From assembly GCA_964016885.1 (NCBI GenBank), contig OZ024742.1:231570001-231634000 (forward strand): a stretch of DNA of 64,000 nucleotides, written 5' to 3'. The stretch comes from Eledone cirrhosa (lineage: Eukaryota). Below the pieces are notes generated by a model. That model saw only the letters and a list, made by a program, of their open reading frames with translations. It had not been told where the DNA came from and made no database searches. This document shows, one piece after another, positions 4,782 to 58,542 of this stretch (position 1 is the first letter of the stretch; the number at the start of each line of letters is the position of its first letter). A program made the position numbers and the translations under genes.

Positions 4782-4883
4782 GTTAATATTTTCTGAAAAG
4801 ACTTCAAGGAACATATTTTTGTTCCTGTTATTAAATCTATCATTTGCATTTGTGGAATTAATATATGGAGTTTGGACGAACAG
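4782..4883 (+). CDS. SLC30A7: ZnT7 exon 2: (R)LIFSEKTSRNIFLFLLLNLSFAFVELIYGVWTN(S), TM1
   Basis: Acceptor ttgttgcag|G and donor AG|GTTTGT, 102 nt. KTSRN.F.FL.LNLSFAFVEL.YG.W is a ZnT5/7 signature. Confidence 0.95.
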
Positions 4884-6655: not shown

Positions 6656-7494
6656 TTCACACAGAATTTATTGCACTTCATTCATACCAGCCATGAAAAA
6701 CGATGTCCGCACTTAATGTTGCCTGTGGATCGAAAGAGACTTCCGGCAAGACCTCTTCTGCATTCCCGGCACCTTAGCCCCACATGCCCCCTCCCCTCTC
6801 CCTGGTCTTAAGGATCAATCACTCCATCATCTCACTACATGTCAAAGTCCATCATCCACATGGGTGAGCAGTGTTCTGTTGGAGTGATGCTTTCATTCTT
6901 CTCTTCTCCAAAGTCTGTCAAATTAACGATTCTGTGGAGATCCAAGATGTGACGCAGCATTCCGTCCACAGACTCGTTGTTTCAGGAATTTAAAGCTGTT
7001 AATGTTCCCTTTCCCCATTGTGACGTGCAGTGTGCATTTGGAGGCCCAAACCTCCTTGCCCACTTGTATGGATGCATTCTCTCTCTCTCTTCCACAGGTT
7101 GTTGTAATAACGTGCATTGATGTTGTAATTCATATCTATATATCACCTTGTATGGCACCAACTCCTTGACTTGTCCCACCCAAGGTGACATGTGCCAGAA
7201 CACCGCCTCCATTGGTTAAATGTGTCCCCTCTCCACTATGGCCTTGATTGGGTGGTGGTGTCTCTCCATGATCCCATTTCCACACAGCTTGTATGCTGCT
7301 CTGAAAAAGCAGCTTACATTCCACACATCAAGCATATTCGGCACCTCCAAGCAAAATTTGGCCATGCTCAGTGTGTAGGAAAGAAGTAGGTAGAAATTCC
7401 ATCCTATGTCCCAAATATAAATTATAGGAACACAAGATGTAGTGGGATCTCAGGCAGGTTGGCAAAGGATGTAGGTTTTGTATGTGGTTGTTGC

Positions 7495-8700
7495 ACAGGA
7501 GCAGTAAGTAGCAAGAACTCAGGAAACAAGCTCCTTTAAATATTCAGAGGGCTCCGTAGAAATAGTTGATAGTTTCTGTTACCTGACTGACCAAAATTAG
7601 TAGTTGGGTATTCTGAAAGTGCAGTAGCCAGAGTGAGAATGGGATGAAAAAAGTTCAGGGAGCTACTACCACTGCTAGCTACAAAAGTTTTTTTCCTGAA
7701 AACGAAATTGTATGAAGCTTCTGTATGAACAGCAATGCTGCATGGAAGTGAGATGAGACTGTGGCACTATGTGCAGAGAACCTACGAAGATTGGAAAGAA
7801 ATGAAGTTTACATGCTCCAATGGATGTGTAATAGTAGTGTGCATGAATGACAAAACAGCAATGCACTGAGAGGGAGACTAGATATAAGAGGGGTTAGATG
7901 CAGTGTGCAGGAGAGGAGATTGCAGTGGTGTGGACATGTGATGCATATGGAGGATGATATCTGTATAAAAAAATGCAAGGTACTCAAAGTTGACAAAAAC
8001 TATGAGAAAGGAAGGCCTAGGAAAGCTTGAGATGAAGTGATAAAAGCTGACCTTGCCCAATTAAACCTCACAAAAGAAGTGACACAGGATTGAGATCTTT
8101 GGCAGAAGACTTGCTCTCCCATGGGCACAGGATGAAACAAACATGTAGAAGACCCTAGTTTGTATCAATCTTCTGCTCTTTACTCCTTCCTAATCTTAAT
8201 ATCTCCTAAGCACTATTCCCCCCCCCCCCTCACCAGCTAAATAACCCATATTGAACCTTCGTACTTGTCCCTCACCCCTTTAATTCTCAGTCCTTGCCCT
8301 GATACACCTCTCCTGCCAAACCATGCAAAAATCTTCCAAAAGAACTCCAACAAAATCCACCCTGTATGGTGATCTGGTGCTACAACAACAAAACACCTAG
8401 TCAATCATGCCTGTAAGGGGGTGGGGGTCATATTGGTGACATGAAAAAGCCCCCAGTCCACTCTATTTGTTCTGGTGACACAACGAAAAGTACCCAGCTC
8501 TCCCTGTTAGATGGTCATTTTGGTGACAATAAAAAGCACCCAGTCCACACTGTGATGCAATTGGTGTTAGGAAGGGCATCCAGTCATAGAAACCAAGCCA
8601 AAATACAGATCCATATGAGCAAGATATTGTCTCATAACATGCAACCCGTCTAATACATCCAAGCATGAAAAAATAGACATTAAATGATGACGATGATGAT
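7495..8700 (+). mobile_element. Old 5'-truncated RTE LINE fragment with 3' UTR and (GAT)n tail
   Basis: Degenerate match to 59620-60658 (SVEIVDSF.YL, VARVRMG.KKFRELLPLLA, WCGHVM). Ends taaatgatgacgatgatgat. Confidence 0.8.
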
Positions 8701-16102: not shown

Positions 16103-16687
16103 AAATGCTATCACCTCAATCCTTTCATAATATTATTTCTAATGAAATACCCTCTATTTCAATTAATGAAGAATTTTGAGGAATTTACTAAAATTATTAT
16201 TCCATTACTAAATTGCTAACTAAACATGGTTCTCATATAAAATTATGTTGGAACTTTTGATTTAAATAGGAACCATAATTAAAGAGTAGTTTTGTTTCAT
16301 ATAACCAGAGGTAGTTTTGGCCAGGTTGGTATTAAAAGGGTTAAAGTGAAATATTTAACTTTACTGGAAAGACCAGATAATTTATGATAATAGAGAAAGA
16401 TCTGCTGTCAGAAATGAAGAAATAGCTTATCAGTTGAAAAGGTGCTGGTAATTGTAATCCACTTGTAATACTATATCCAAATTTAGTTTGCAACAAGAAA
16501 ACATGATTCAATCTTACCAATATCCTACATGATACTGACTCACAAGCCATTTATCTCAAGCCTGAATCTGAAACTGTAAATAACTCTGATGAAAATATGG
16601 CTTTTCTCACTTCAACAAATACAACTAGTTATACAAGATTGATGATAACATAATTTGTGAAACAAATGATAAGGACATATCAAGTAA

Positions 16688-17165
16688 TCATCATCATCAT
16701 CATCATTTTAATGTCTGCATCCCCTGCTAGCAAGGATTGGATGGGTCCATGCAAACCAAGTCAGTACTGAAGCGGATACACTCATCTAGAGAGGCCAGAG
16801 ATGTGTTACTCATTTATGTATGGTCTCACATTCCACTGAGTGCACAGGAGAGGTTGTCATGCTTTTGACATAACTGAAGGTCCTCATAACCTTTTCTTTG
16901 GCAAAATTTCTACAGCTGGATGCCCTTACTATTACCAACCACTTTACAGTGTGTACTGGGTGTGTTTATCATGTAAATTATCAACAGTAGGGAGGTTGTC
17001 ATGTCCCTGAGACAACTGAAGGGGTCCTCCTGCCCCTTTATCTGGCGACCTTTCTATCGATGGATGCCCTTCCTATCACCAACCACTTTACAGTGTGTGT
17101 TTATCATGTAGATCTACATTAGAGAGGCTGTCATGTCTATGACACAACTGAAGGCTCCTCCTGAC
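16688..17165 (-). mobile_element. RTE-tail short element with about 3 internal tandem duplications of a ~120-bp segment
   Basis: (CAT)n tail at 16688. gaggttgtcatg..acaactgaagg occurs three times; ggatgccctt.ctat.accaaccactttacagtgtgt occurs twice. Confidence 0.6.
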
Positions 17166-18609
17166 CTTTTGTTTGTTTGTTTGGCAAATGTGCATATGTT
17201 GTGTGTGTGTGGGGGGTGGGGGTGAAGTAGTGATGTTGAGAATAACTGTTAGGGAGTGCTATTGGAGGGGGGAGGTAGGTCAGGTCACATTGTATGCTGC
17301 AGGTCGGGTCTTCTTCAGCACTGCATAGCACCAACCCATGCGGTCTTTAGTCATTTCTGTTGTAAGATTTAAGGCTCTTTATTTTGGTAAGTTTTATAAG
17401 CCATATTTGTATGTCTTTGAGACAGCCAGGTGAATGCATTTGAATGAGCTTGCAGACAAGACAGCATAACTATAGTCTGACCGCAGGTGTGCAGGGATGT
17501 CCGGTAATTGAGATGTTAACCGGTAATTGAGATCCTAAAAATGGAAAAACCCACAGTCAACTGGGTCAAAGACACTTTGAGCGCAGCCAGTTAGAATCTT
17601 ATCTTTCCTTCACCGATACAATGTATTTCATGTCTGAAATTATTGACTCAACCGCAACGAGTTAACACTATGTAGATCTATTTTATTCCCTATTGTATAA
17701 ATAATATTTCAAATAAAAAAAAAAGAAAAGAATAAACAGAAGCGGGTAGCACACACATCTAGGACCACATACAACACATAATCAGATAATACACAGATCT
17801 TTGGAATATTGTTAATCAATTTTTTAGTAATCTACTGATATAAAAATCAGTAGTATATTGAAAAATGGAAAAATAGGGGGGGGGGGGGCGTTTCGTGATT
17901 TTGAGGGACAAAAGGGGGCATTTGGCCTAAATGGGTTGAGAACCTGTGATCTAGTTTATGGTGGAAATTTCTAATATTGACCAATAAAAAAAAGAAATGT
18001 TTTTATAATTATTTCATATGAAATTTGAATGAGTATATTTAGGGTAACATGATTAGTTTGACAGCTTAACCCAATCATCATCATCATTTTACATTGGCTT
18101 CCCATGCTGGAATGGAGTGGAGAGATCATCACTATCCAAGACAAGACTGATTAGGGAACCACATCTTGCTCCTATGTTCCATATTTGCCGTAGTTTCTAT
18201 GGGTGGATGTCTTTCCTAATGCTAACCACTTTACAGAGTGTACTGGGTGCATTTGACTAAAGTGTTCCCCCTCTATTCTACATTGCCTTGGTCTGTTGGT
18301 CTACTACTGTGCTAAGTGTGTTGTTACATTGTGACACCAACACTAGAAAGATTATCCCATCTACTGCAGGATAAAAGTGGGTCCTCTCAACTTCATACAG
18401 TCTCCGATCTCTCACTACATTTACATTTTTCTTGGCAGGGCTAGTACGAGTGAGAGGATCTTTTCTAGTTTGGCAATCTGCTAGTCAGTACGATTCTTTA
18501 TCATCTCCTTTATGAGGTTCAAGGATGTTTACAATTGATACTACCACATCCATTGATGATTTTGTATCATTTAGCACACTAAATGATTTTAATGTACTTT
18601 TTTTTTTTT

Positions 18610-21600
18610 TGTTATGACCATGCTGTAAAATGGAGGGGTAGAGAGGGCCCATGAGTCCAGTAAGACATCCTCTCTAGTGCTGGTGGCACGAATAAAAGCA
18701 CCCAGTCCATGCTGTAAAGTGGCACTGGTGTTAGGAAGGGCATCCAACCAGTGTATCAATGCCAAAACAATTATAAGCATAGCAACAAGTATATAGGAAC
18801 AACAAAAATATGAAGACGCCGCATCTCAGAGTTGCAACACTTAATGTTGGCACTCTCACAGGTAGATCTGCTGAAATAGCGGAGATGCTGGAGAGAGGGC
18901 GTGTACATGTGTGCATCTTAGCTATAAGCTTTTCTGGGTAGGTAAGGATGATGGGTTAGGGGGAGTAGGCATTTTCCTGGCTGAGAGATGGATCAATAAG
19001 ACAATAGAGGTAGTTCGAATTAATAATCAAATAATTAAGCTTAGATTAGTTGTAGGTAGGAGACTACTGACAATCATCTCTGCCTATTCTCCCCAAGCAG
19101 GCCTAGGCAAAGAAGAGAAAGACTGCTTTTACGAGCAACTTTTACAAACAACCGCAATGACAGAGGACGGAGACATCGTTATGCTAGCAGGAGACTTCAA
19201 TGGTCATATTGGACAGCTCCAGGATGGTTACACTGGGGTACATGGTGGACACGGTTACGGCTCAAGAAATGAAGAAGGGGTGAGACTTCTTGAATTTTGT
19301 GATGCAAGTACACTGACTATTTGCAACACTAACTTCCAGGTACCTGCCAACCACCTAATAACCTACAAATGAGGCGGGCACATAAGCCAGATTGACTTCT
19401 TACTCGTTAGGCAGCGGGACAGGCAGATGGTGTCAAATACCAAGGCATACCCTGGGGAAGAATGTACCCCACAGCATAGGTTAGTCATTAGTGATATCTC
19501 AGTAAACAAGAGATGGAATGAGACATACAGGAAGGTGTGGAGAAGAAAGGTCTGGAAGCTAAAAGACCTTTCACTAAAATACAAATTTAGGAAAGACCTT
19601 CAAGAAGTGTATGACGAAAAAGAAGACGATTTAGAGACGTATGACATAGATAATAACTAGAATTTCTTACGTGACAACTTACTGCAGGCTACTGGTGAAA
19701 CTTGTGGCTGGAGCAGAGCTCCAACCAGACAGAGAGTGACCTGGTGGTGGAACAGCACAGTAGATAAGGCCATTAGAGTCAAAAGACTAGCATGGAAGGC
19801 TTGGAAAAAGGGAGGGAGTAGAGAAAGATATACAGCCGCTAGGAGAGAAGCTAGACGTCAGGTGTCCTTAGCACGCAGGGAGGCTGAGAGTAGGAGGTTT
19901 GCCAATGTTCTGCAATGGGTAGATCAGAGGCGTGCGGTGTTCCACATTGCAAGGCAGTGTGTCAATGCAAATCAGGATGTTGTTGGGGATAAATGTGTCC
20001 GGAATGATGCCGGTGTACTTAGTGTCACGAATGATCAGAAAAAAGAGGCCTGGAAATGTCATTATGAGAGACTGATGAATGTGGAGAATGAATGGGAGAG
20101 AGAAAAATTACCCTCAGCAGATCCGACAGAGGGACCAGCTATTGAGATTGACGAATATAGGGTCCAAGAGGTGATTAAGGAAATGAAAAATGGTAAGGCT
20201 GCTGGACCGTCAGGGATAGTTGCTGAGATGCTGAAGGCATCAGAGAACGTAGGCACTAAACTGGTTGCATGCATCATCAATCAGGCTATATATGGTGGTG
20301 TCATACCCAAAGACTGGTGCAGCAGTATTCTCATAAATTGCTACAAAGGTAAAAGGGATGCTCTGGAGAGGAGCAATTATAGGGGTATAAAACTGATGGA
20401 TCAGGTTATGAAAGTGGCAGAAAGGATATTAGCACAACTAATTAGAGAAAGGGTCAAACTAGATGAGATGCAGTTTGGTTTTGTGTCTGGGAAAAGTACA
20501 ACAGATGCACTCTTCTTGGTGAGACAATTACAAGAGAGGTTCTTAGAGAAGAATAAGCCACTATACTTTGCCTTTGTTGACCTAGAGAAGGCCTTTGATA
20601 GGGTACCTTGATCTGTCATCTGGTGGTCCCTAAGGAAACTAGGTGTTGAGGAATGGCTTGTGAGGACAGTGCAAACTTTGTACATAGGTGCTGTCAGGAA
20701 AGTGAGCGTAGGAATGGAGTTTAGTGAGGAATTCCAGATACAAGTAGGAGTACATCAAGGTTCGGTCCTCAGCCCGCTATTGTTCATTATAGTCCTCCAA
20801 GCCATAACAGAGGAGTTTAAGACTGGCTGTCCATGGGAACTTCTCTATGCTGACGATCTGGTTCTTATAGCAGAATCAGTAGAGAAGCTAGAGAATAAAT
20901 TCTGGCTATAGAAACAGCAGTTGGAAGCAAGAGGACTGAGAGTGAACCTAGCTAAGACAAAAGTGTTGATGAGTAGAAAAGAGGACAAAACTCTGATTCC
21001 ATCAGGGAAATGGCCATGTTCGATATGCAGAAAAGGAACTGGCATAAATTCTATAAAATGTACACAATGCAGATCTTGGGTACACAAGAGATGTAGTGGG
21101 ATAGCAGGCAAACTAACAGGTAGTGAGAAATATGTATGCAGTAGATGTACAGGGAAAGTTGGCAGTAGAAGTCGCATTGATAGACACAATTTTCAAATGC
21201 AGGTGGGTTCTATAGAAGTGGTATATAGCTTCCGGTACCTAGGAGATCAGATTAGCATGGGAGGGCGGGTGTTCCGAGGCCATAGTATCTAGAATAAGGA
21301 CGGGTTGGATGAAGTTTAGGGAGCGGGTTTCTCCCTGCATACGAAAGGCCAGTCATATGATGCCTGTGTGAAGAGCGCGATGCTGCATGGTAGTGAGAAA
21401 TGAGGCAAGCATGCTCCGTTGGATGTGCAATGTCAATGTGCGTGAACGACCCAGCATGAATGTGTTGAGAGAGAAACTTTGTCTGAGAGGGATAGAATGT
21501 AGTGTACGAGAGAGGAGACTGAGGTGGTATGGACATGTGATGCGCATGGAGGATGACCGATGGGTGAAGAAGTGCCAGGAAATGCCAGTTGAAGGAAGAC

Positions 21601-21779
21601 GTGGTAGAGGTAGATCACGAAAAACATGGGCGGAGGTGGTGAGAACAGACCTCAGATCGCTGAAGCTCACGGTGGAGATGACAAAGGACCGTGACAAGTG
21701 GAGAGATGCTGTGCTGAATAAGACCCATCCCACCCTTGCAAGCAGGGAAAAGCGGATGTAAAATGATGATGATGATGAT
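18610..21779 (+). mobile_element. Near full-length RTE-clade LINE (copy A): APE endonuclease, RT and PHD-like finger, inactivated by stops and deletions
   Basis: ATG 18810 MKTPHLRVATLNVGTLTG; GVGIF, SAYSPQ, GDFNGHIG, SQIDF, QHRLV (APE); [45 protein letters not shown] (RT); RLRWYGHVMRM..GRGR; (GAT)n tail at 21763-21779. Confidence 0.95.
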
Positions 21780-22781
21780 TATATCACGGATGAGTTATTG
21801 TTAATAAGGTTGTCATGTTCTAGTTTCATAGCCTCATCTTGAGAGAGTATATTTACAATATATATATATCTACAGTGGACATAGCCTGGTCCAGTTGTTA
21901 AGGAGTTCACTTTGCAATCATAGGGTTTCAGTTTGATGTCACTGCATAATAACATATTAGCGCCATACATATTCGGTGTAGCAGTTAGTGTTAGGAAGGG
22001 CCTCCAGCCATAAAAACCATACCAAATATGGAATGTAATGGGCAAGATTGGTCATTCTGGCTTGTCTGGTCTCAGACCATGACAACCTGTCAACCCATGC
22101 CAGCGGGGAAAGAGTAAGTAAAAAGGATGATGATGATGATTAGCACCTAATTTGGTGACAAACCACTATTCAAATTAATATATTTGTGAGTTTTGTCATA
22201 ATAGTTGCAAGTATGACTACATAGTTAAGCAGCTTGCTTCACAACCATGTAGGTTTGGGTTCAATCTTACTACATGGTACCTTGGGTAAGTGAGTGTCTT
22301 CTACTATGGCCTTGGGCTGATCATTGTCTTGTGAGTGGAAATTTGGTAGATGGCAACTGCTGAAGCTTGTAGTACATATATCTGTATATAGTTGTGTGTT
22401 TGTCTCCACATGTGTCTTCAAATTGAAATTGTGTTGTCAACTGGTAACATTTGTTTGTGTTTTTCAAAAACAATATGTTCAGCAACTCAGCAGTTCAACA
22501 CCTGAAGATTGGTGGAATTAGTATTTTACTTGTTTTCAAGTAACAAACTTGAAAACAGGTAAGAGATGGCATTAAGAAGGACTTCTAGCCATGGAATACT
22601 ATCTAAAGTCATGGAAAAGCAGACATAAAATGATAATGATGATATGTCAGTAAGAGACTAGTTGTGTCAGTAAAAGCTATTTTGGTTCTGTATAAGAGCT
22701 TTAGTTCATAAACATTGTCTTAAATTATTTTAATGATTGTATATTTATTTCACCGGTTGAATTTAAATGTAAAGAAATTAA

Positions 22782-22922
<141 letters not shown>

Positions 22923-24356
22923 TAAGTATTACATTGACCAATTAATACAATATTCATAAAATTTGATTATGATAATGGTTACTCAAATGGAAAGACTACT
23001 TCCCATTTTGAATGTACTTTTAACCATGACTTTGCATAAAATTAAATATGGTCCCACAATAAAATATATCCAGCCCACACTATAAAGAGGTAGTGCTGGT
23101 GCCATGAAAAAAAGCATCCAGTCTGCCCTGTCAGGTGGTAGTATTTGTGTTATAAAAAAAAGTTAAAATTGGTACATGCTGTGAAGTGATTGATGTTATA
23201 TAAACCATGCAAAAATGGAGCGTATGAGCAAGACAGAATTTTCTGATCTGTCTATCTAGCCTCAGAGTGTGACAGCCTGTCAACAATACCAACGTGGAAA
23301 ATAGATGTAAAATGGCAATGATGATGATGATCTGTATTTCTCAGACATAGTATTGGTGAGAAAAATCATCTGCTGTCTTAAATGTATCAGATTCATGTAG
23401 ATTATAGACACGCACTTGCTTATAGCTGTTCACTAAATTTGATGGGTCTTTAGAGGATTTGTTCACTTCCCTAGTTTGGTTGTATGAACATCTCTTCTAT
23501 AGGTTTTTTGTAAGTGTATGCGCAACAAACAGTTCTCAAAAGACATACCTCAATGATTATATATACATAAGCATTTTAATCACTGAAATAAACGAGACAG
23601 GTTACTACATCTGTTGCTCCTTGACTTTGTGTCAGATATTGTCATAAAGGGGATGTGTTGAAATGTATCGTTGACCGCATGGTGCATTATAGATGCGACA
23701 GGCCAACAAACACGTCTTGTTGGCATGAAAGTCAAAGTCGGAAGAGACAGCCTTCAGCTAATGATGTCAGAACTAAGGGCAGTTAATAGTCTGTTTTTAA
23801 AGCCAGACACCAGGTGGCGTCATTTTGCTACAGGTCCATTGGTGACTGCACTTTTTAAAAAGCTTTAGCAACAGAGGATGTGACTGGAGAATCAATGATT
23901 GTTACTGCATATACTACACCTATAGTGTGTGGGCACAAGCAAGGAAACTATGGAAGCAGTAGTATTTCAAAGTTGTGGACATGCATGATACCCAAAAAAA
24001 AATCAAAGATACCCAAACTACTATGATGACAATGAGTTTCCCCTCTCCCCATCAAAATCCATGGTACCATTGCAGAAGAAGAAGCCTGTGCAACGAAGAT
24101 GCACAGTGGCGTTGAGTGTGCAAATATTTCGTTATTACTTTCTTTTATTGTGATATGGGTAGATTCAGTGGCAAGGGTACCCAAGACATCTAGTGCCTCC
24201 TTCCTGCTGCAGAAGACTGCTGGAAATCCAGTCTATCAGAAATTGCCCTAGCTTATTTCAGATCACTTTGAGTACTGTGGGTAACATGCACTCCAGTAGA
24301 TCCTGTAACATGTTGGAGCTAATGTCAACTAAATCGACAACTCCACCAGGTTCTGT

Positions 24357-24583
24357 TTGACCCTTTAGCATTTAAACTGGCTGTATCCAGCCAGAATTCT
24401 CTCACCTTTCTGTTCAAACTAGCCATAACTGGTTGCTCATACTTATGTTAAGGTATTGTTCTCAAAATAAATGATATCAACATCTCATAGATTCAATATT
24501 ATGCGAGATAATTATGCGAAATAAAGTGTTTACTGTGAAAATACAGTAGTAAATATAGAGTAATGTAAATACTAAAGGGTTAA
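24357..24583. mobile_element. piggyBac-like TTAA MITE
   Basis: ccctttagcattta...taaatactaaagggTTAA. Confidence 0.85.
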
Positions 24584-24958
24584 AAGGGTTGCTAGAAACC
24601 CATCAAAACAAAAAGAAGACCTGTCAAAAGAATAGATGTATCCAACATTAGAGTCAACGGCTACCTAGTAATTTTGCACTTGCCTTTAAAAATGAAATTA
24701 ATAGAAATGAAGCCATAGTGAAACAGAAATCTGTTTGTTATTGTAATGAAACATGCTAGCAGGGAGAACGGACATTAAATGAGGATGATGATGATGATGG
24801 AGGATGTGGTTTAAGGTTGATTTCTTGAGAATCTATGTAGAGACTCCCTCAGTGGTTCATGTTTGCTGTTGATTATTTGAATGGGTTTTGATTAATGCAT
24901 ATGTCCATGTATGCTGTTATGAGTTTGTGCATGCTTTTGTGTTCATGTGCCCATCTGT

Positions 24959-25490
24959 GAAGGTGCATGGCTTAGTGGTTAGAGTGTTCAGCTCACGATT
25001 GTAAGGCTGTGAGTTTGATTCCTGGCAGTGCGTTGTGTCCTTAAACAAGACGCTTTATTTTACATTGTTCCAGTCCTCTCAGTTGGAAAAAATGGTTTCT
25101 ATCTGTAATTCAAAGGACTAGAATAGTCACACACTATCTCCCTGAGAATCGTTTTAACCCTTTACCATTTACATTACTCTATATATACTATTGTATTTTC
25201 ACGGTAAACACTTTATCTCACATAATATCGAATCTATGAGATTTTGATATTATTTATTTTGAGAACAATACCTTAACATAAGTATGAGCGACCAGTTATG
25301 GCCAGTTTGAACAGAAAGAAGTGAGAGCATTCTGGCCGGATACGGCTGCTTTAAATGCTAAAGGGTTAAGAGTACTCACATCTATGGAATGCTCAGCCAC
25401 TTGTATGTTAATTTCATTAGGAGGCTGTTCAGTTATTTGATCAACTGATGATCTCATCATCAGAAGTGATGATTGTCCAACAGTGTGTGT
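24959..25490 (+). mobile_element. tRNA-derived SINE interrupted by a TTAA MITE (25154-25369)
   Basis: A box tggcttagtgg and B box gagtttgattcc. The MITE is bounded by TTAAccctttac...aaagggTTAA and is inverted relative to the 24357 copy. Confidence 0.8.
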
Positions 25491-25537
25491 TAATCTATTT
25501 CTCATTGTGTTTATATGATTGTGTTTGTGTGGTACTT

Positions 25538-28500
25538 GCTGTATGTGTGTGAGACTGGCTGTATGTGTGTGTGAGACTGGCTGTATGTGTGTGTGAGACT
25601 GGCTGTATGTGTGTGAGACTAGCTGTATGTATGTGTGAGAGACTGGCTGTATGTGTGTGTGAGACTAGCTGTATGTGTGTGTGTGAGACTAGCTGTATGT
25701 GTGTGTGAGACTAGCTGTATGTGTGTGTGAGACTGGCTGTATGTGTGTGTGAGACTGGCTGTATGTGTGTGTGAGACTAGCTGTATGTATGTGTGAGAGA
25801 CTGGCTGTATGTGTGTGTGAGACTGGCTGTATGTGTGTGTGTGAGACTGGCTGTATGTGTGTGTGTGAGACTGGCTGTATGTGTGTGTGAGACTGGCTGT
25901 ATGTGTGTGTGAGACTGGCTGTATGTGTGTGTGAGACTAGCTGTATGTGTGTGTGAGACTGTCTGTATGTGTGTGTGAGACTGGCTGTATGTGTGTGTGA
26001 GAGACTGGCTGTATGTGTGTGTGAGACTAGCTGTATGTATGTGTGAGAGACTGGCTGTATGTGTGTGTGAGACTGGCTGTATGTGTGTGTGCGACTAGCT
26101 GTATGTGTGTGTGTGAGACTGGCTGTATGTGTGTGTGAGACTGGCTGTATGTGTGTGAGAGACTGGCTGTATGTGTGTGTGAGACTAGCTGTATGTGTGT
26201 GTGAGACTAGCTGTATGTATGTGTGAGAGACTGGCTGTATGTGTGTGTGAGACTGGCTGTATGTGTGTGTGAGACTGGCTGTATGTGTGTGTGAGACTAG
26301 CTGTATGTGTGTGTGAGACTGGCTGTATGTGTGTGTGAGACTGGCTGTATGTGTGTGTGAGAGACTGGCTGTATGTGTGTGTGAGAGACTGGCTGTATGT
26401 GTGTGTGAGACTAGCTGTATGTGTGTGTGAGACTAGCTGTATGTATGTGTGAGAGACTGGCTGTATGTGTGTGTGAGACTGGCTGTATGTGTGTGTGAGA
26501 CTGGCTGTATGTGTGTGTGAGACTAGCTGTATGTGTGTGTGAGACTGGCTGTATGTGTGTGTGAGACTGGCTGTATGTGTGTGTGAGAGACTGGCTGTAT
26601 GTGTGTGTGAGAGACTGGCTGTATGTGTGTGTGAGACTAGCTGTATGTGTGTGTGAGACTAGCTGTATGTATGTGTGAGAGACTGGCTGTATGTGTGTGT
26701 GAGACTGGCTGTATGTGTGTGTGAGACTAGCTGTATGTGTGTGTGAGACTGGCTGTATGTGTGTGTGAGACTGGCTGTATGTGTGTGTGAGAGACTGGCT
26801 GTATGTGTGTGTGAGAGACTGGCTGTATGTGTGTGTGAGACTAGCTGTATGTGTGTGTGAGACTAGCTGTATGTATGTGTGAGAGACTGGCTGTATGTGT
26901 GTGTGAGACTAGCTGTATGTGTGTGTGAGACTAGCTGTATGTGTGTGTGAGACTAGCTGTATGTGTGTGTGAGACTGGCTGTATGTGTGTGTGAGACTAG
27001 CTGTATGTGTGTCTGAGACTAGCTGTATGTGTGTCTGAGACTAGCTGTATGTATGTGTGAGAGACTGGCTGTATGTGTGTGTGAGACTAGCTGTATGTGT
27101 GTGTGAGACTAGCTGTATGTGTGTGTGTGAGACTGGCTGTATGTGTGTGTGTGTGTGAGACTAGCTGTATGTGTGTGTGAGACTGGCTGTATGTGTGTGT
27201 GTGAGACTGGCTGTATGTGTGTGTGTGACTAGCTGTATGTGTGTGTGAGACTGGCTGTATGTGTGTGTGAGACTGGCTGTATGTGTGTGTGTGAGACTGG
27301 CTGTATGTGTGTGTGTGAGACTAGCTGTATGTGTGTGTGAGACTAGCTGTATGTGTGTGTGAGACTAGCTGTATGTGTGTGTGAGACTGGCTGTATGTGT
27401 GTGTGAGACTGGCTGTATGTGTGTGTGCGACTCGCTGTATGTGTGTATGTGAGACTGGCTGTATGTGTGTGTGTGAGACTAGCTGTATGTGTGTGTGAGA
27501 CTGGCTGTATGTGTGTGTGTGAGACTGGCTGTATGTGTGTGTGAGACTGGCTGTATGTGTGTGTGTGTGAGACTGGCTGTATGTGTGTGTGTGTGAGACT
27601 GGCTGTATGTGTGTGTGAGACTGGCTGTATGTGTGTGTGTGTGAGACTAGCTGTATGTGTGTGTGTGAGACTAGCTGTATGTGTGTGAGAGACTGGCTGT
27701 ATGTGTGTGTGAGACTAGCTGTATGTGTGTGTGAGACTAGCTGTATGTATGTGTGAGAGACTGGCTGTATGTGTGTGTGAGACTAGCTGTATGTGTGTGT
27801 GAGACTAGCTGTATGTGTGTGTGAGACTAGCTGTATGTGTGTGTGAGACTGGCTGTATGTGTGTGTGTGAGACTGGCTGTATGTGTGTGTGAGACTGGCT
27901 GTATGTGTGTGTGAGACTGGCTGTATGTGTGTGTGCGACTAGCTGTATGTGTGTGTGTGAGACTGGCTGTATGTGTGTGTGTGAGACTAGCTGTATGTGT
28001 GTGTGTGAGACTAGCTGTATGTGTGTGAGAGACTGGCTGTATGTGTGTGTGTGAGACTGGCTGTATGTGTGTGTGAGACTGGCTGTATGTGTGTGTGAGA
28101 CTGGCTGTATGTGTGTGCGCGACTAGCTGTATGTGTGTGTGAGACTGGCTGTATGTGTGTGTGAGACTGGCTGTATGTGTGTGTGAGACTGGCTGTATGT
28201 GTGTGTGTGAGACTAGCTGTATGTGTGTGTGAGACTGGCTGTATGTGTGTGTGAGACTGGCTGTATGTGTGTGTGTGAGACTAGCTGTATGTGTGTGTGA
28301 GACTAGCTGTATGTGTGTGTGAGACTGGCTGTATGTGTGTGTGAGACTGGCTGTATGTGTGTGTGTGAGACTGGCTGTATGTGTGTGTGAGACTAGCTGT
28401 ATGTGTGTGTGAGACTGGCTGTATGTGTGTGTGAGACTAGCTGTATGTGTGTGTGTGTGAGACTAGCTGTATGTGTGTGTGAGACTAGCTGTATGTATGT

Positions 28501-28723
28501 GTGTGAGACTGGCTGTATGTATGTGTGTGAGACTGGCTGTATGTGTGTGTGAGACTGGCTGTATGTGTGTGTGTGTGTGTGAGACTAGCTGTATGTATGT
28601 GTGTGAGACTAGCTGTATGTGTGTGTGTGTGAGACTAGCTGTATGTGTGTGTGAGACTAGCTGTATGTATGTGTGTGAGACTAGCTGTATGTATGTGTGT
28701 GAGACTAGCTGTATGTGTGTGTG
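25538..28723. repeat. Minisatellite, ~20-bp unit GAGACT(A/G)GCTGTAT(GT)n, about 3.2 kb
   Basis: Read directly. Unit length varies in 2-bp steps with the GT count, and an A/G dimorphism runs throughout. Confidence 0.98.
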
Positions 28724-28834
28724 TATGAATCTGCAACAGTATTTGTCTACCATACCATTCCCTTTGTATATTTGTGTATGACTTGATTTCAGAGGTTTGG
28801 TTTTTTTGCATGTCTAATCTATATACACCCACGT

Positions 28835-29352
28835 GTGGAGGGGTGGGGGGGTGGGGGGCATGTTTGATATGTGTGTGGGGGGGGGGGAGACATGGTTGAT
28901 GTGTGTGTGTGTGGGGAGACATGGTTGATGTGTGTGTGGGGGGGTGGGGGGCATGATTGATGTGTGAGGGGAGACATGGTTGATGTGTGGTGGGAAGGGG
29001 CATGGTTGATGTGTGTGTGGAGCATGGTTGATGTGTGTGGGGGTGGGTATGGTTGATGTGTGTGGAGGGGGCATGGTTGATGTGTGTGTGTGGAGGGAGG
29101 GGGCATGGTTGATGTGTGTCTCTGTGGGGAGACATGGTTGATGTGGTGGGAGAGACATGGTTGATGTGGTGGGAGAGACATGGTTGATGTGTGGGGGGAG
29201 ATATGGTTGATGTGTGGGGGGAAGGGGCATGGTTGATGTGTGTGTGGGGGGGGGGACATGGTTGATGTGTGTGTGGAGCATGGTTGATGTGTGTGGAGGG
29301 GGGATGGTTGATGTGTGTGTGTGGAGGGAGGGGGCATGGTTGATGTGTGTGG
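28835..29352. repeat. G-rich minisatellite CATGGTTGAT(GT)n(G-run), with G-quadruplex potential
   Basis: About 20 copies of atggttgatgtg separated by G-runs. Confidence 0.92.
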
Positions 29353-29675
29353 AAGGTACCTGTTTATGGGTGTGTGGGAGGGATGTGCTGGTGTGTCAGT
29401 GGAGGGGATGTAGTTGTATGTTTATGGGAGGGACTTGCTAGTGTGTGTGTGTTGTATGTGTGTATGAGGTGCTGGTATGTGTTTATATCAGTGTTAGATT
29501 CATAAACAAACCTCTACAGCTAACATATATACAAGGTTCAACCTAGCTTTACTTCTCCACAATTTATTTTTTTGATAATCAATGTGAAATTCTTCAAATT
29601 TTTCTCTGAGGACTTTACTTTGTAACATCTTACAGTTGCTTATCTCTCACTTCACATTTTATATATAGATACAGT

Positions 29676-29678
<3 letters not shown>

Positions 29679-29734
<56 letters not shown>

Positions 29735-29739
29735 GAGAG
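29679..29739. repeat. (GA)n microsatellite
   Basis: Read directly. Confidence 0.98.
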
Positions 29740-30022
29740 TTGAACAGAACAGTGAAAAAACAAATACCTATGTGTGTGTGTTTGTGTGTATGTATGGGTG
29801 CATGTGCCTCAGCATGTCTGCAGTCTCATAACTGAAACCAGTAAAAGAATATATTATATTATGAGTTAGTAAATAAACTATATAGTTCTTCCTTTGATAA
29901 TGGTTACCTACAGTTTACACATGTATATGTAGTGAATATTATATGGAGAGAAGGCAAGTGATTTGATTGTTGTTCTTTAGCGTAATGTCTAATGCATTCA
30001 TACAATATTAAAAAGATACAGT

Positions 30023-30238
30023 TTAACCCTGTAGCATTTACATTACTCTATATTTACTATTGTATTTTCATGGTAAACACTTTATTTCACACAATTATTT
30101 CACATAAAATCGAATCTACGAGATTTTGATATTATTTATTTTGAGAACAATACATTAACATAAGTATGAGTGGCTGGTTACAGAAAGAAGTGAGAGAATT
30201 CTGGCCGGATATGACTGGTTTAAAAACTAAAGGGTTAA
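30023..30238. mobile_element. piggyBac-like TTAA MITE
   Basis: TTAAccctgtagcattta...ctaaagggTTAA. Confidence 0.85.
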
Positions 30239-31019
30239 TTATCTATAAAATTATTAGGGACAGAGAAAGAATTGGGGTGGACAAAAAGAGAGGGAGAGAA
30301 ACAGAGAGGGGGCTACAAAGAGATAGGAGGTTCAAGTGCTTGTTGGTGCCTCTGTCCACTTTTAGTTCAACCCTTGCTAGCAGGGAAAAAGGACATCAAA
30401 TGACAATGAGGTTGATGAATTATTTAACCCACTCTCAGTTAAGCACTGTTGTATTGATGTGACTCTATTCCTGGTTTTGGTTCTGCTACAAAGGAATGAA
30501 GAGAGGGAAAAACTGTTAAGATACAAGATACAATGGAATGAACCTCCGTTGGTTTTGATGATAAATGTGATCAGGGGAACACCCTGCACATGAAATTAAC
30601 CTGTATGTGGCTGAGCATTCCACAAACATATGTGCCTTTAGTGTGACTCCATGTAATCCATGAATCCATGTAATACAGTATGTGACAAGGTTGGCCTTTT
30701 AAATTACAGGTACAGTCCATCCAATGGGCTTCCAAACAGTTTCTGTCAACCCAATTTTACTCACAAAGCATGTAATGAGATGAGGCTATGATAAATAACA
30801 CTTACTCAAGGTGCCATACAGTGGGATTGAATCTGGGACCTAATGATTGAAAGGTGAACTTCTTAACCATTCAGCCATACAAGATACAATATCTATTTAC
30901 TGTTTTAAAGTCTGTGGGCTTGAAAAGGTAAAAACCCATTGAATCTGACAAACTGTAGCCTTTGCTAGGCCACTGCCATATGCTTTCTATAGCTCTATTT
31001 CTTTGGTTGGCTTCTGGTG

Positions 31020-31310
31020 AATGGGTAAGTTTGATAATACTGCTCTCACTTATGTTTCTTGCCTCATCTGGGGGTCTCAGATAGTAGAATGTCCAGGTAC
31101 TTCTTGAAAACATTTACATCCCCTTCATTTGAATCTGTTGAGTTTTTTGGTAGGATACTGAAGAGATGTTGGCCTTTCAATCCTAAACTATTGCAGTATC
31201 TGGTTCTTACTCTATATGGGGAGAGTGACATTTTGGCACTATACAGAAGCATTCAATTTAGGGATTGGTGTAGCTCTCAATGCTAAAGTTTGGTGCTTGG
31301 TTCTCCTTTT
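31020..31310 (-). mobile_element. CR1/L2-type LINE ORF2 C-terminal remnant
   Basis: Minus strand RTRYCNSLGLKGQHLFSILPKN..DVNVFKKYLDILLSETP(DE) resembles the CR1 ending 'G..LFN.LP....FK..LD.FL..VPDEP'. Confidence 0.65.
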
Positions 31311-31459
31311 CATTATATATATAATTAGGATAATTGACAAAGAGAAGACAATGGAAAACAAGGCAGAATGAAAAACATTTTTTTTAACCTCTTACTTGTC
31401 CTAAATTGTATGCATTCTAGTGCCACAAATAACTTGTCCTAACATGTTTGAACTCTTTT

Positions 31460-33292
31460 CCAACAGTAAGCTTCAGCGATCTGAGGTCTGTTCTCATCAC
31501 CTCCACCCATGTTTTTCGTGGTCTACCTCTACTACGTCTTCCTTCAACTGGCATTTCTTGGTACTTCTTCACCCATCGGTCATCCTCCATGCGCATCACA
31601 TGTCCATAACATCGCAGTCTCCTCTCCCGCACACTACAATCTATCCCTCTCAGACAGTTTCTCTCTCAATACATCCATGCTCGGTCGTTCACACACATTG
31701 ACATTGTACATCCAACGGAGCATGTTTACCTCATTTCTCTCCAGCCGTCGCATATCCTCTGCAGTTGCTGCCCATGTCTCACTACCATGCAGCATCGCAC
31801 TCTTCACACAGGCATCATATGACTGGCCTTTCGTATGCAGGGAGAAACCCGCTCCCTAAACTTCATCCAACCCGTCCTTATTCTAGATACTATGGCCTCG
31901 GAACACCCGCCCTCCCATGCTAATCTGATCACCTAGGTACCGGAAGCTATCCACCACTTCTATAGGACCCACCTGCATTTGAAAAATGTGTCTATCAATG
32001 CGACTTCTACTGTCAAGTTTCCCTGTAATCTACTGCATACATATTTCTCACTACCTGTTAGTTTGCCTGCTATCCCACTACATCTCTTGTGTAACCAAGA
32101 TCTGCATATCGAACATGGCCATTTCCCTGACGGAATCAGAGTTTTCTCCTCTTTTCTACTCATCAACACTTTTGTCTTAGCTAGGTTCACTCTCAGTCCT
32201 CTTGATTCCAACTGCTGTTTCCATAGCCAGAATTTATTCCCTAGCTCCTTACTGATTCTGCTATAAGAACCAGATCGTCAGCATAGAGAAGTTCCCATGG
32301 ACAGCCAGTCTTAAACTCCTCTGTTATGGCTTAGAGGACTATAATGAATAATAGCGGGCTGAGGACCGAACCCTGATGTACTCCTACTTGTATCTGGAAT
32401 TCCTCACTAAACTCCATTCCTACGCTCACTTTCCTGACAGCACCTATGTACAAAGTTTGCACTGTCCTCACAAGCCATTCCTCAACACCTAGTTTCCTTA
32501 GGGACCACCAGATGACAGATCAGGGTACCCTATCAAAGGCCTTCTCTAGGTCAACAAAAGCTAAGTATAGTGGCTTATTCTTCTCTAAGAACCTCTCTTG
32601 TAATTGTCTCACCAAGTGGATGGCATCTGTTGTACTTTTCCCAGGCATAAAACCAAACTGCATCTCATCTAATTTGACCCTTTCTCTAATTAGTTGTGCT
32701 AATATCCTTTCTGCCATTTTCATAACCTGATCCATCAGTTTTATACCCCTATAATTGCTCCTCTCCAGAGCCCTTTACCTTTGTAGCAATTTATGAGAAT
32801 ACTGCTGCACCTGTCTTTGGGTATGACACCGCCATATATAGCCTGATTGATGATGCGCACAACCAGTTTAGTGCCTACGTCCCCTGATGCCTTCAGCATC
32901 TCAGCAACTATCCCCGACAGGTCCCGCGACCTTACCATTTTTCATTTCCTTAATCACCTCTTGGACCCTATATTCGTCAATCTCAATAGCTGGTCCCTCT
33001 GTCGGATCTACTGTGGGTAATTTCTCTCGCTCCCATTCGTTCTCCACATTCATCAGTCTCTCATAATGACATTTCCAGGCCTCCTTTTTCTGATCATTCG
33101 TGACACTAAATACACCGGCATCATTCCGGACACATTTATCTCCAACAACATCCTGATTTGCATTGACACACTGCCTTGCACCACTTTAGAGCATGGACTG
33201 GGTGCTTTTATTTGTGCCACCAGCACTAGAGAGGATGTCTCTCTGGACTCATGGGCCCTCTCTACCCCTCCATTTTACAACATGGTCATAAC
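31460..33292 (-). mobile_element. RTE LINE copy B: near-identical to copy A, inverted, with the endonuclease deleted and no tail
   Basis: Reverse complement matches 19948-21675 almost base for base, joined directly to the 5' segment matching 18610-18722. ORF-track peptides are nearly identical (e.g. 20401- vs 32446+). Confidence 0.95.
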
Positions 33293-33555
33293 AATAATAA
33301 CAACACTATTAATAATTATTAGTTAATGCAATCGTGCAATGCCTGTGCGTGAAGAATATTTTTAAAGTGAGGAAAGACTGTGCACTGAGCCAATCCCACT
33401 CTCTGAGCGACTAGCTATAACCCGAAAAGAAGAAAAGATCAATATCATCGGTAATTACTGAGCCGCAGGTTTTATGTTGGAGTTAACCCAGTTTCCTGAG
33501 ATGCCTTCTAGAAGAATGCCCTGACAAGGGCTTAGGGGTCCTTCACTCCCAGTGG

Positions 33556-33556
<1 letters not shown>

Positions 33557-33596
<40 letters not shown>
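33557..33596. repeat. (TA)n microsatellite
   Basis: Read directly. Confidence 0.97.
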
Positions 33597-35110: not shown

Positions 35111-38100
35111 AATGGTGGTTACTAGGAGGTGGTGGAATGGTGGTTACTAGGAGGTGGTGGAATGGTGGTTACTAGGAGGTGGTGGAATGGTGGTTACTAG
35201 GAGGTGGTGGAATGGTAGTTACTAGGTGGTGGTGGAATGGTGGTTACTAGGAGGTGGTGGAATGGTGGTTACTAGGAGGTGGTGGAATGGTAGTTACTAG
35301 GAGGTGGTGGAATGGTGGTTACTAGGAGGTGGTGGAATGGTAGTTACTAGGAGGTGGTGGAATGGTGGTTACTAGGAGGTGGTGGAATGGTAGTTACTAG
35401 GAGGTGGTGGAATGGTGGTTACTAGGAGGTGGTGGAATGGTGGTTACTAGGAGGTGGTGGAATGGTGGTTACTAGGAGGTGGTGGAATGGTGGTTACTAG
35501 GAGGTGGTGGAATGGTGGTTACTAGGAGGTGGTGGAATGGTGGTTACTAGGAGGTGGTGGAATGGTGGTTACTAGGAGGTGGTGGAATGGTAGTTACTGG
35601 GAGGTGGTGGAATGGTGGTTACTGGGAGGTGGTGGAATGGTGGTTACTAGGAGGTGGTGGAATGGTAGTTACTAGGAGGTGGTGGAATGGTGGTTACTAG
35701 GAGGTGGTGGAATGGTGGTTACTAGGAGGTGGTGGAATGGTGGTTACTAGGAGGTGGTGGAATGGTGGTTACTAGGAGGTGGTGGAATGGTGGTTACTAG
35801 GAGGTGGTGGAATGGTGGTTACTAGGAGGTGGTGGAATGGTAGTTACTAGGAGGTGGTGGAATGGTGGTTACTAGGAGGTGGTGGAATGGTAGTTACTAG
35901 GAGGTGGTGGAATGGTGGTTACTAGGAGGTGGTGGAATGGTAGTTACTAGGAGGTGGTGGAATGGTGGTTACTAGGAGGTGGTGGAATGGTGGTTACTAG
36001 GAGGTGGTGGAATGGTAGTTACTAGGAGGTGGTGGAATGGTGGTTACTAGGAGGTGGTGGAATGGTAGTTACTAGGAGGTGGTGGAATGGTAGTTACTAG
36101 GAGGTGGTGGAATGGTGGTTACTAGGAGGTGGTGGAATGGTGGTTACTAGGAGGTGGTGGAATGGTGGTTACTAGGAGGTGGTGGAATGGTGGTTACTAG
36201 GAGGTGGTGGAATGGTAGTTACTAGGTGGTGGTGGAATGGTAGTTACTAGGAGGTGGTGGAATGGTGGTTACTAGGAGGTGGTGGAATGGTGGTTACTAG
36301 GAGGTGGTGGAATGGTGGTTACTAGGAGGTGGTGGAATGGTGGTTACTAGGAGGTGGTGGAATGGTAGTTACTAGGAGGTGGTGGAATGGTGGTTACTAG
36401 GAGGTGGTGGAATGGTGGTTACTAGGAGGTGGTGGAATGGTAGTTACTAGGAGGTGGTGGAATGGTGGTTACTAGGAGGTGGTGGAATGGTGGTTACTAG
36501 GAGGTGGTGGAATGGTAGTTACTAGGAGGTGGTGGAATGGTGGTTACTAGGAGGTGGTGGAATGGTAGTTACTAGGAGGTGGTGGAATGGTGGTTACTAG
36601 GAGGTGGTGGAATGGTAGTTACTAGGAGGTGGTGGAATGGTAGTTACTAGGAGGTGGTGGAATGGTGGTTACTAGGAGGTGGTGGAATGGTGGTTACTAG
36701 GAGGTGGTGGAATGGTGGTTACTAGGAGGTGGTGGAATGGTGGTTACTAGGAGGTGGTGGAATGGTAGTTACTAGGTGGTGGTGGAATGGTGGTTACTAG
36801 GAGGTGGTGGAATGGTAGTTACTAGGAGGTGGTGGAATGGTAGTTACTAGGAGGTGGTGGAATGGTGGTTACTAGGAGGTGGTGGAATGGTGGTTACTAG
36901 GAGGTGGTGGAATGGTGGTTACTAGGAGGTGGTGGAATGGTGGTTACTAGGAGGTGGTGGAATGGTAGTTACTAGGTGGTGGTGGAATGGTAGTTACTAG
37001 GAGGTGGTGGAATGGTGGTTACTAGGAGGTGGTGGAATGGTGGTTACTAGGAGGTGGTGGAATGGTGGTTACTAGGAGGTGGTGGAATGGTGGTTACTAG
37101 GAGGTGGTGGAATGGTAGTTACTAGGAGGTGGTGGAATGGTGGTTACTAGGAGGTGGTGGAATGGTAGTTACTAGGAGGTGGTGGAATGGTGGTTACTAG
37201 GAGGTGGTGGAATGGTAGTTACTAGGAGGTGGTGCAATGGTGGTTACTAGGAGGTGGTGGAATGGTAGTTACTAGGAGGTGGTGGAATGGTGGTTACTAG
37301 GAGGTGGTGGAATGGTAGTTACTAGGAGGTGGTGGAATGGTGGTTACTAGGAGGTGGTGGAATGGTAGTTACTAGGAGGTGGTGGAATGGTGGTTACTAG
37401 GAGGTGGTGGAATGGTGGTTACTAGGAGGTGGTGGAATGGTAGTTACTAGGAGGTGGTGGAATGGTGGTTACTAGGAGGTGGTGGAATGGTAGTTACTAG
37501 GAGGTGGTGGAATGGCGGTTACTAGGAGGTGGTGGAATGGTGGTTACTAGGTGGTGGTGGAATGGTAGTTACTAGGAGGTGGTGGAATGGTGGTTACTAG
37601 GAGGTGGTGGCATGGTAGTTACTAGGAGGTGGTGGAATGGTAGTTACTAGGAGGTGGTGGAATGGTGGTTACTAGGAGGTGGTGGAATGGTGGTTACTAG
37701 GAGGTGGTGGAATGGTGGTTACTAGGAGGTGGTGGAATGGTGGTTACTAGGAGGTGGTGGAATGGTAGTTACTAGGAGGTGGTGGAATGGTAGTTACTAG
37801 GAGGTGGTGGAATGGTGGTTACTAGGAGGTGGTGGAATGGTGGTTACTAGGAGGTGGTGGAATGGTAGTTACTAGGAGGTGGTGGAATGGTGGTTACTAG
37901 GAGGTGGTGGAATGGTAGTTACTAGGAGGTGGTGGAATGGTGGTTACTAGGAGGTGGTGGAATGGTGGTTACTAGGAGGTGGTGGAATGGTGGTTACTAG
38001 GAGGTGGTGGAATGGTGGTTACTAGGAGGTGGTGGAATGGTAGTTACTAGGAGGTGGTGGAATGGTAGTTACTAGGAGGTGGTGGAATGGTGGTTACTAG

Positions 38101-45203: not shown

Positions 45204-45291
45204 ATATGTACGTGCTGAAATATTGGCTGGTTTTGTAAATGGCCTCTTTCTCATATTTATTGCTTTCTTCATTTTCTCTGAGGCGGTTGAG
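45204..45291 (+). CDS. SLC30A7: ZnT7 exon 4: (G)YVRAEILAGFVNGLFLIFIAFFIFSEAVE, TM3
   Basis: Acceptor ttttcaag|A and donor GAG|GTAAGT, 88 nt. Completes the CDF motif FSYGYVRAE.LAGFVNGLFL. Confidence 0.95.

Positions 45292-58541: not shown

Positions 58542-58542
<1 letters not shown>

What the first reader, a model, noticed from the sequence alone, without database searches (positions are those of the whole stretch)
18610..33292. Near-identical RTE copies in inverted orientation bracket the frame-symmetric, zinc-site exon 3 of ZnT7
Seen: copy A (+, intron 2, ending about 1 kb before exon 3) and copy B (-, intron 3) share about 1.7 kb of almost base-identical sequence, and exon 3 (114 nt, phase 2-2, HMFFD motif) is the only exon between them. 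Established: inverted intronic repeats form long pre-mRNA duplexes that promote back-splicing and exon skipping and are ADAR substrates, and coleoids edit RNA heavily. Inference: the duplex could loop out exon 3, giving an in-frame ZnT7 that lacks TM2 and half of the transport site, and/or a 114-nt circle. That circle has an ATG and no stop in the coding frame ([38 protein letters not shown] repeating). Editing could tune the outcome.
Basis: partly seen in the sequence, partly recalled or inferred. Interest (0 to 1): 0.72.

Follow-up and report, generated by a model that had tools for sequence, protein, structure and literature searches.

The report
Neighbouring inverted LINEs swap sequence patches
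Two dead jumping-gene copies lie in opposite directions on either side of one exon of a zinc-transporter gene and share short identical patches, likely because one was copied onto the other during DNA repair, a known process that shows the same signature at other copy pairs in this genome; the proposed exon skipping and circular RNA remain untested.

Summary
The layout is real: LINE copies A (+, intron 2) and B (-, intron 3) bracket exon 3 of ZnT7 (114 nt, phase 2-2, HMFFD). They are 91% identical (4.2% substitutions), which is ordinary for this family of over 4,000 copies. The likeness is patchy: two tracts are identical (0/149, 0/131) and carry changes found only in A and B in the 3-Gb genome, while the ends differ by 4.7% and 7.4% and belong to different subfamilies. 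Best reading: two independent insertions, later partly homogenised by non-allelic gene conversion. Two of 8 other inverted neighbour pairs (24 and 33 kb apart) show the same signature, against 2 of 5,137 unlinked pairs, so it is not special to ZnT7. A pre-mRNA duplex is predicted to be very stable, but no RNA run was listed, so skipping, back-splicing and editing are untested. The stop-free circle follows from any frame-symmetric exon, and a ZnT7 without TM2 would likely be dead. Earlier scan notes proposed copying between LINE neighbours at other loci of this genome. Known process, new instance; modest interest.

The parts
4782..4883 (+). ZnT7 (SLC30A7) exon 2, 102 nt, also phase 2-2; donor AG|GTTTGT
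   Evidence: matches 8j7t_A 43-74, E 8.6e-11
18599..21780 (+). Copy A: dead RTE-type LINE, T-run 5' type, endonuclease-RT-PHD remnants with several stops and deletions, (GAT)n tail
20609..20757 (+). Identical tract 1 in A (0 differences in 149 nt to B); holds a shared stop codon and pair-private changes at 20685, 20698, 20707
   Evidence: a 32-mer from it occurs only in A and B genome-wide
21061..21204 (+). Middle patch where A carries B-subfamily states (21061, 21076, 21160): likely copied from B to A
   Evidence: only 5 reference copies define the B subfamily
21245..21375 (+). Identical tract 2 in A (0 differences in 131 nt); shared 22-nt deletion and shared rare changes at 21266, 21310, 21339, 21351, 21354, 21372
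   Evidence: exact 27-mer only in A and B; the deletion alone recurs in L115
22808..22921 (+). ZnT7 exon 3, 114 nt, phase 2-2, encodes the HMFFD motif of TM2; acceptor TTTGCAG, donor GG|GTAAGT
   Evidence: 8j7t_A 76-112, E 4.6e-13; Cation_efflux
31463..33557 (-). Copy B: dead copy of a different subfamily (own 5' UTR, 33557-33300), 1,225-nt internal deletion at 33181/33180, 3' end cut, no tail
32374..32522 (-). Tract 1 in B
31800..31930 (-). Tract 2 in B
45204..45291 (+). ZnT7 exon 4, 88 nt
   Evidence: (8j7t_A 114-142, E 6.4e-10)

Best explanation
A and B are two dead, oppositely oriented copies of one abundant RTE-type LINE family that likely inserted independently on either side of ZnT7 exon 3 and were later likely homogenised in short patches by non-allelic gene conversion. 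Shown: different 5' UTR types and 3' subfamily states, identical internal tracts, changes private to the pair, exon 3 still in sense orientation. Inferred: the two copies paired in the germline during break repair, and short tracts were copied without crossover (a crossover would have inverted exon 3 and killed the allele); at least one patch went from B to A. Inferred and untested: when intron 2 is still unspliced as B is transcribed, the pre-mRNA folds into a long imperfect duplex that ADAR edits within the introns, while exon 3 stays mostly included; any skipped product or circle is a low-level by-product.
For: Segment distances A-B: 31/657, 0/149, 17/443, 0/131, 22/296; no other copy of 53-57 compared is as close in either identical tract. 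Shared non-majority states cluster at 20609-21372, p = 0.001 and 0.0015; 1 of 60 unlinked pairs reached p <= 0.01. Two pair-specific patterns hit only A and B in 3.0 Gb, while the family state at one of these places has 1,030 exact hits. B shares its 5' UTR with L037, L050, L053 and A does not; B has 9 of 13 B-subfamily states (one site is deleted in B), A has 3, all in one middle patch. Same signature in L123/L124 (24 kb, 6 pair-private sites) and L131/L132 (33 kb, 7 sites), each confirmed by a pattern with exactly two hits genome-wide; 2 of 5,137 unlinked pairs with >=1.5% divergence have 6 or more such sites. Conversion between neighbouring Alus within about 10 kb is described (PMC8230782, PMC6598467, passages).
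Against: The 22-nt deletion is not unique: L115 has it without any of the 11 other shared states checked, and 4 more copies have a near-identical deletion, so that site is a deletion hot spot. The middle region 20758-21244 still differs at 17/443, so several events or later drift must be assumed. 'Private' was defined on panels of 85-119 copies, about 50-85 covering any one site, out of more than 4,000; only two A/B patterns were checked genome-wide. Tract limits were read off the same data that were tested. No outgroup genome or second individual shows the state before conversion. The DNA contigs did not settle the assembly question.
Confidence: 0.8

Rival explanations
1. One reading: the A/B duplex loops out exon 3 at a meaningful rate, giving an in-frame TM2-less ZnT7 and/or a translated 114-nt circle, tuned by editing. 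This can coexist with the conversion history.
For: Duplex predicted very stable, 16 perfect runs of 30 nt or more, no comparable competitor within either intron. Reverse complements promote both skipping and back-splicing in C. elegans (PMC8330042, passages). Inverted Alu pairs are enriched around skippable exons and the TBXT case exists (PMC13019027, passages). Long flanking introns are typical of circRNA loci (PMC6376117, passages).
Against: B is 8.5 kb from the exon, outside the 5-kb window of the Alu study, which also found little difference in duplex energy between skippable and constitutive exons (PMC13019027). 114 nt is short for a single-exon circle (PMC6376117). Octopus vulgaris circRNAs are few and low (PMC9699675, passages and supplement file 2). 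Exon 3 has consensus splice sites. Losing one helix removes His70/Asp74 equivalents and the TM2-TM3 dimer contact (PMC10409766) and would flip downstream topology (inference). The open circle frame follows from exon symmetry; exon 2 is symmetric too.
Confidence: 0.1
2. The shared patches are an assembly or polishing artefact: reads of one copy overwrote the neighbour.
For: All three patchy pairs lie within 13-33 kb, near long-read length. The contigs laid come from one sample and no listed piece bridges an element end by 31 letters on both sides.
Against: A and B keep 70 substitutions and distinct indels interleaved with the tracts. Mis-mapped reads should come from any of 4,000 copies, not the neighbour. 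One 36-nt piece over shared sites (31901-31936) has depth 15.1 against 6-10 for unique flanks in run X1, as expected if both copies carry it, though this is a single weak datum.
Confidence: 0.06
3. B arose from A (or both from one local source) by local inverted duplication or by a chimeric, template-switched retrotransposition.
For: A and B are sisters in a tree of 23 rows (support 0.899); A was the best non-self hit for B's 881-nt piece among 40 scored; B has no tail and no target-site duplication was found.
Against: Flanks are unrelated, 5' UTR types differ, 3' parts differ at subfamily-diagnostic sites, and outside the tracts A and B are no closer than random copies (33 of 56 copies are as close or closer to A in the 5' part, 45 of 55 in the 3' part).
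Confidence: 0.04

Closest known systems
Non-allelic gene conversion between neighbouring Alu elements (Aleshin and Zhi 2010, seen only as cited in PMC8230782 and PMC6598467; the paper itself was not held)
   Same: Nearby copies of one retroelement family share non-diagnostic mutations and look closer than their insertion history allows.
   Different: Here 3-kb LINEs in an invertebrate, at 13-33 kb rather than within about 10 kb; all three patchy cases are inverted pairs (not significant at this sample size).
Inverted Alu loop-out exon skipping, TBXT type (PMC13019027, passages) and reverse-complement-driven back-splicing and skipping (PMC8330042, passages)
   Same: Inverted repeats in the two introns flanking one frame-symmetric exon.
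   Different: Arms are 1.7 kb, the far arm is 8.5 kb from the exon, and no skipped or circular RNA has been shown.
Octopus RTE LINEs such as RTE-2_OV (PMC9115989, passages)
   Same: Single long ORF with endonuclease and reverse transcriptase; intact copies exist in this genome (L133, 1,022 aa).
   Different: This family has a PHD finger after the RT core rather than the C2H2 finger described; no sequence comparison with RTE-2_OV was made.
Human ZnT7 / SLC30A7 (PDB 8j7t; PMC10409766, passages)
   Same: Exons 2-4 match residues 43-142 of the chain in order; HMFFD carries the His70/Asp74 equivalents.
   Different: Nothing unusual in the three exons compared; later exons were not traced.

Membership tests
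Non-allelic gene conversion between repeats | Mosaic of identical tracts and diverged flanks | tested here: met
   0/149 and 0/131 against 31/657 and 22/296; permutation p = 0.001
Non-allelic gene conversion between repeats | Derived states shared by the pair and absent from other copies | tested here: met
   two patterns with exactly two hits in the genome; 6 sites with at most one other carrier; the deletion alone recurs once
Non-allelic gene conversion between repeats | Copies otherwise of separate origin | tested here: met
   different 5' UTR types and 3' diagnostic states
Non-allelic gene conversion between repeats | No crossover (markers between and beside stay in place) | tested here: met
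   exon 3 is in sense orientation; B keeps B-type 5' and 3' ends
Non-allelic gene conversion between repeats | Pre-conversion state seen in an outgroup or another haplotype | not testable with these tools
   G000 has no relatives held; the three DNA runs are one sample
RTE-clade non-LTR retrotransposon | Single long ORF with AP endonuclease and reverse transcriptase | tested here: met
   L133: one ORF of 1,022 aa with Exo_endo_phos, RVT_1 and PHD; A's pieces carry the same domains
RTE-clade non-LTR retrotransposon | Short 3' end in a simple tandem repeat (feature recalled, not from a call) | tested here: met
   (GAT)n at about 21762-21780 in A; absent from the cut B
RTE-clade non-LTR retrotransposon | RT groups with reference RTE elements in a tree | not tested
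RTE-clade non-LTR retrotransposon | Target-site duplication | tested here: inconclusive
   only an 8-nt low-complexity match for A, none for B
Inverted-repeat-driven circRNA or loop-out exon | Reverse-complementary arms in both flanking introns | tested here: met
Inverted-repeat-driven circRNA or loop-out exon | Both arms within about 5 kb of the exon (window used in PMC13019027) | tested here: not met
   A ends 1.0 kb before, B starts 8.5 kb after exon 3
Inverted-repeat-driven circRNA or loop-out exon | Long exon, as typical of single-exon circles | tested here: not met
   114 nt against medians of 169-253 nt (PMC6376117); a tendency, not a rule
Inverted-repeat-driven circRNA or loop-out exon | Back-splice, skip or clustered A-to-G reads | not testable with these tools
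ZnT7 / SLC30A7 | Best match to ZnT7 with the TM2 HxxxD motif | tested here: met

The most novel reading that the evidence does not exclude
Inverted LINE neighbours in this genome convert each other preferentially and over tens of kilobases, so that long intronic duplexes, the substrate of coleoid ADAR, are renewed instead of decaying; at ZnT7 the renewed duplex loops out the zinc-site exon and acts as an editing-dependent off switch for Golgi zinc loading.
Probability: 0.05. Interest if true: 0.72.

Novelty: new member of a known kind. Interest (0 to 1): 0.3.

Why it matters
As it stands it is a clean, dated-in-sequence example of conversion between LINE neighbours, with a first hint (2 of 8 other inverted pairs) that this is common in the genome. 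That matters for dating repeats by divergence and for reading 'near-identical inverted pair' as a sign of function: likeness can be renewed without selection. The same pairing, resolved with a crossover, would invert exon 3 and knock out the allele, so such pairs mark possible recurrent inversions. If RNA data showed real skipping, it would be a TBXT-like, insertion-made splicing switch on a transport-site exon in an animal with heavy editing.

Tried and rejected
RNA evidence: the one run search gave 'no RNA holder listed', only three runs of one sample; this says nothing about expression. Contigs of those runs were laid on 16500-25450 and 31380-32560: pieces reach 12-29 letters into A's ends, below the 31-letter rule, none listed bridges B's end, and depth over the repeat is swamped by the family, so the assembly test is inconclusive. 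ADAR scars in the DNA (lead from earlier notes): none; no A>G among the 10 shared private changes, and A>G is 8 of 42 unshared private changes in A and 3 of 34 in B, so RNA-templated copying of an edited duplex has no support. The 22-nt deletion as sole proof of shared ancestry: rejected, it recurs. Orientation bias: 2 of 8 inverted against 0 of 8 diverged direct pairs is not significant; dropped before this count were three inverted pairs and two direct pairs with under 1,000 aligned nt, and L133/L134, a direct pair with 1 difference in 3,181 nt that may be a tandem duplication. In the tree, 8 of 29 loci were dropped for segment length. Target-site duplications: not found. Literature: searches listed no paper on conversion between LINE neighbours in cephalopods (listings only, library incomplete); one search listed no paper on ZnT7 exon 3 skipping; the four supplement files of PMC9699675 held as text do not name ZnT7, and no list of the 296 circles was seen.
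Full report
1. The observation. Self-comparison of the masked window gives one dominant dispersed repeat: 19948-21673 (+) against 33180-31463 (-), 1606/1768 identical (90.8%), 70 substitutions, 7 gaps, plus a 123-nt 5' piece at 93%. Copy A runs from a T-run at about 18599 to a (GAT)n tail at about 21780. Copy B runs from 33557 to 31463, lacks A 18723-19947 and has no tail. Exon 3 is 22808-22921, 114 nt, phase 2-2. Exons 2, 3 and 4 match chain 8j7t_A (human ZnT7) at 43-74, 76-112 and 114-142, leaving room only for the split codons, so exon 3 is the only coding exon between the copies. His70 and Asp74 of TM2 are zinc ligands and TM2 forms the dimer contact with TM3 (PMC10409766, passages). Skipping keeps the frame and the circle frame is open with one ATG.

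2. The family. The genome (3.0 Gb) holds at least 4,102 matches to a 30-nt tag with up to 2 mismatches and gave 4,524 and 4,530 first-look candidates, of which 40 were scored each time. One copy, L133, has a single 1,022-aa ORF with endonuclease, RT and PHD domains, an RTE-type architecture; clade membership was not tested by a tree. A and B are broken by stops and frameshifts. Among 1,176 pairs of other copies the median distance is 5.4% and the 5th percentile 3.5%, so 4.2% between A and B is ordinary. Among the first 100 listed exact-tag copies (108 Mb of C1) two inverted pairs lie within 13 kb, which scales to at least about 55 in the genome (my extrapolation). Weaker inverted matches join every pair of introns examined in the window.

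3. What is unusual. The likeness is patchy. A-B differences by segment are 31/657 (19948-20608), 0/149 (20609-20757), 17/443, 0/131 (21245-21375) and 22/296 (21376-21673); in the two identical tracts the nearest of 53-57 other copies differs by 2.7-3.4%, while in the 5' and 3' parts 33 of 56 and 45 of 55 copies are as close or closer to A than B is. Of 90 informative sites, the 20 where A and B share a non-majority base cluster at 20609-21372 (permutation p = 0.001; 0.0015 with the 5' piece added, and 1 of 60 unlinked pairs at p <= 0.01). A 32-mer from tract 1 and a 27-mer from tract 2 each occur exactly twice in the genome, in A and in B; the family state at the second place has 1,030 exact hits. 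Against this: with 2 mismatches five more copies appear, one (L115) with the same 22-nt deletion but none of the 11 other shared states checked, so the deletion alone proves nothing. The ends show separate origins: B shares a 5' UTR with L037, L050 and L053 that A lacks, and of 13 sites that mark the B subfamily (5 reference copies) B carries 9 and A carries 3, all at 21061-21160, which suggests a B-to-A patch. No A>G change is among the 10 shared private changes.

4. Is it special to ZnT7? I fetched neighbour pairs picked from the listings and added one pair. Counting sites shared by the pair and at most one other copy: A/B 6; of 8 other inverted pairs with at least 1,000 aligned nt, L123/L124 (24 kb) has 6 and L131/L132 (33 kb) has 7, the rest 0-1; 8 diverged direct pairs have 0-3; L133/L134 (direct, 16 kb) is near-identical and set aside; five pairs with shorter overlap were dropped; 2 of 5,137 unlinked pairs reach 6 or more, both within the small B subfamily. 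A pattern from each of the two positive pairs hits exactly those two copies genome-wide. So exchange between neighbours recurs in this genome. Whether those pairs lie in genes was not checked, and inverted against direct (2/8, 0/8) is not significant.

5. Mechanism. Shown: mosaic, pair-private states, separate subfamilies, exon 3 in sense orientation. Inferred (0.8): independent insertion, then non-allelic gene conversion in short tracts without crossover, probably more than once. This is the process described for Alu neighbours within about 10 kb (PMC8230782 and PMC6598467, passages; the primary paper was not held). The RNA side is inferred only. The arms are predicted to pair at -1,084, -1,045 and -977 kcal/mol per third, with 16 perfect runs of 30 nt or more and 22 of 70 mismatches able to form G-U. 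But B is transcribed 8.5-10.3 kb after exon 3, so the duplex needs intron 2 still attached (inference). Intronic repeats are the usual editing targets in coleoids (PMC9068888 and PMC9699675, passages), so some editing is likely (my estimate about 0.5); in human data 78.3% of edited Alus had an inverted Alu within 1 kb (PMC4053975, passages), a much shorter loop than the 9.8 kb here. A regulated skip or translated circle is unlikely (0.1): single-exon circles have medians of 169-253 nt (PMC6376117, passages), Octopus vulgaris yielded 296 circles at low levels (PMC9699675, supplement file 2), duplex energy barely separates skippable from constitutive exons (PMC13019027, passages), the open circle frame follows from exon symmetry, and the product would lack half of the transport site. 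In its favour, reverse complements do drive both skipping and back-splicing in C. elegans (PMC8330042, passages), and A/B has no comparable competitor (2510 bits against at most 273 within intron 2 or 3).

6. Limits. No RNA could be laid; the DNA contigs are one sample and did not settle the assembly question. One genome, no outgroup. Panels cover 85-119 of more than 4,000 copies. Searches (listings) showed no report of this in cephalopods, in an incomplete library.

7. Verdict. Observation partly confirmed; interpretation partly supported and untested at the RNA level. A new instance of a known process. Interest 0.3.

Noticed in passing
window 35111-43729: 8.6-kb array of a 25-nt unit (97% matches) inside intron 3, G-rich on the sense strand (GGAGG, GGTGG runs); it lengthens the intron after B.
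   Followed up: no
window 25544-28723: 3.2-kb minisatellite of a 22-nt TG-rich unit between exon 3 and B, inside the loop of the predicted duplex.
   Followed up: no
L131/L132 (G000:C1 98.955 and 98.988 Mb) and L123/L124 (51.435 and 51.460 Mb): Inverted LINE pairs 33 and 24 kb apart with pair-private changes and identical runs of 296 and 312 nt.
   Followed up: yes
L133/L134 (G000:C1 9.08 and 9.10 Mb): Two direct copies 16 kb apart with 1 difference in 3,181 nt, shared 5' flank and an open 1,022-aa ORF; tandem duplication or very young copies.
   Followed up: partly
window 21300-21345 and homologous place in other copies: Deletion hot spot: many copies carry different 9-24-nt deletions here (that panel was selected for likeness to A), and the 22-nt one recurs.
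   Followed up: partly
window 21017-21148 (A): PHD finger after the RT core of the family ORF.
   Followed up: partly
window 7314-8105, 46222-46546, 49632-51614, 57736-58062, 58542-60296: Older relatives of the same LINE (45-72% protein identity) in introns 2, 4 and later; B pairs inversely with the 58.5-kb copy at 69.5% over 981 nt.
   Followed up: no
window about 200-2450: Decayed GC-rich element upstream of the gene with RT-like motifs, by recall a different non-LTR clade; not tested.
   Followed up: no
G000:C1 31238259/31239166, 108363015/108364807, 287896136/287897357: Three same-strand tag pairs 0.9-1.8 kb apart among 100 listed, suggesting internal tandem duplications of copies (L144 confirms one).
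   Followed up: partly
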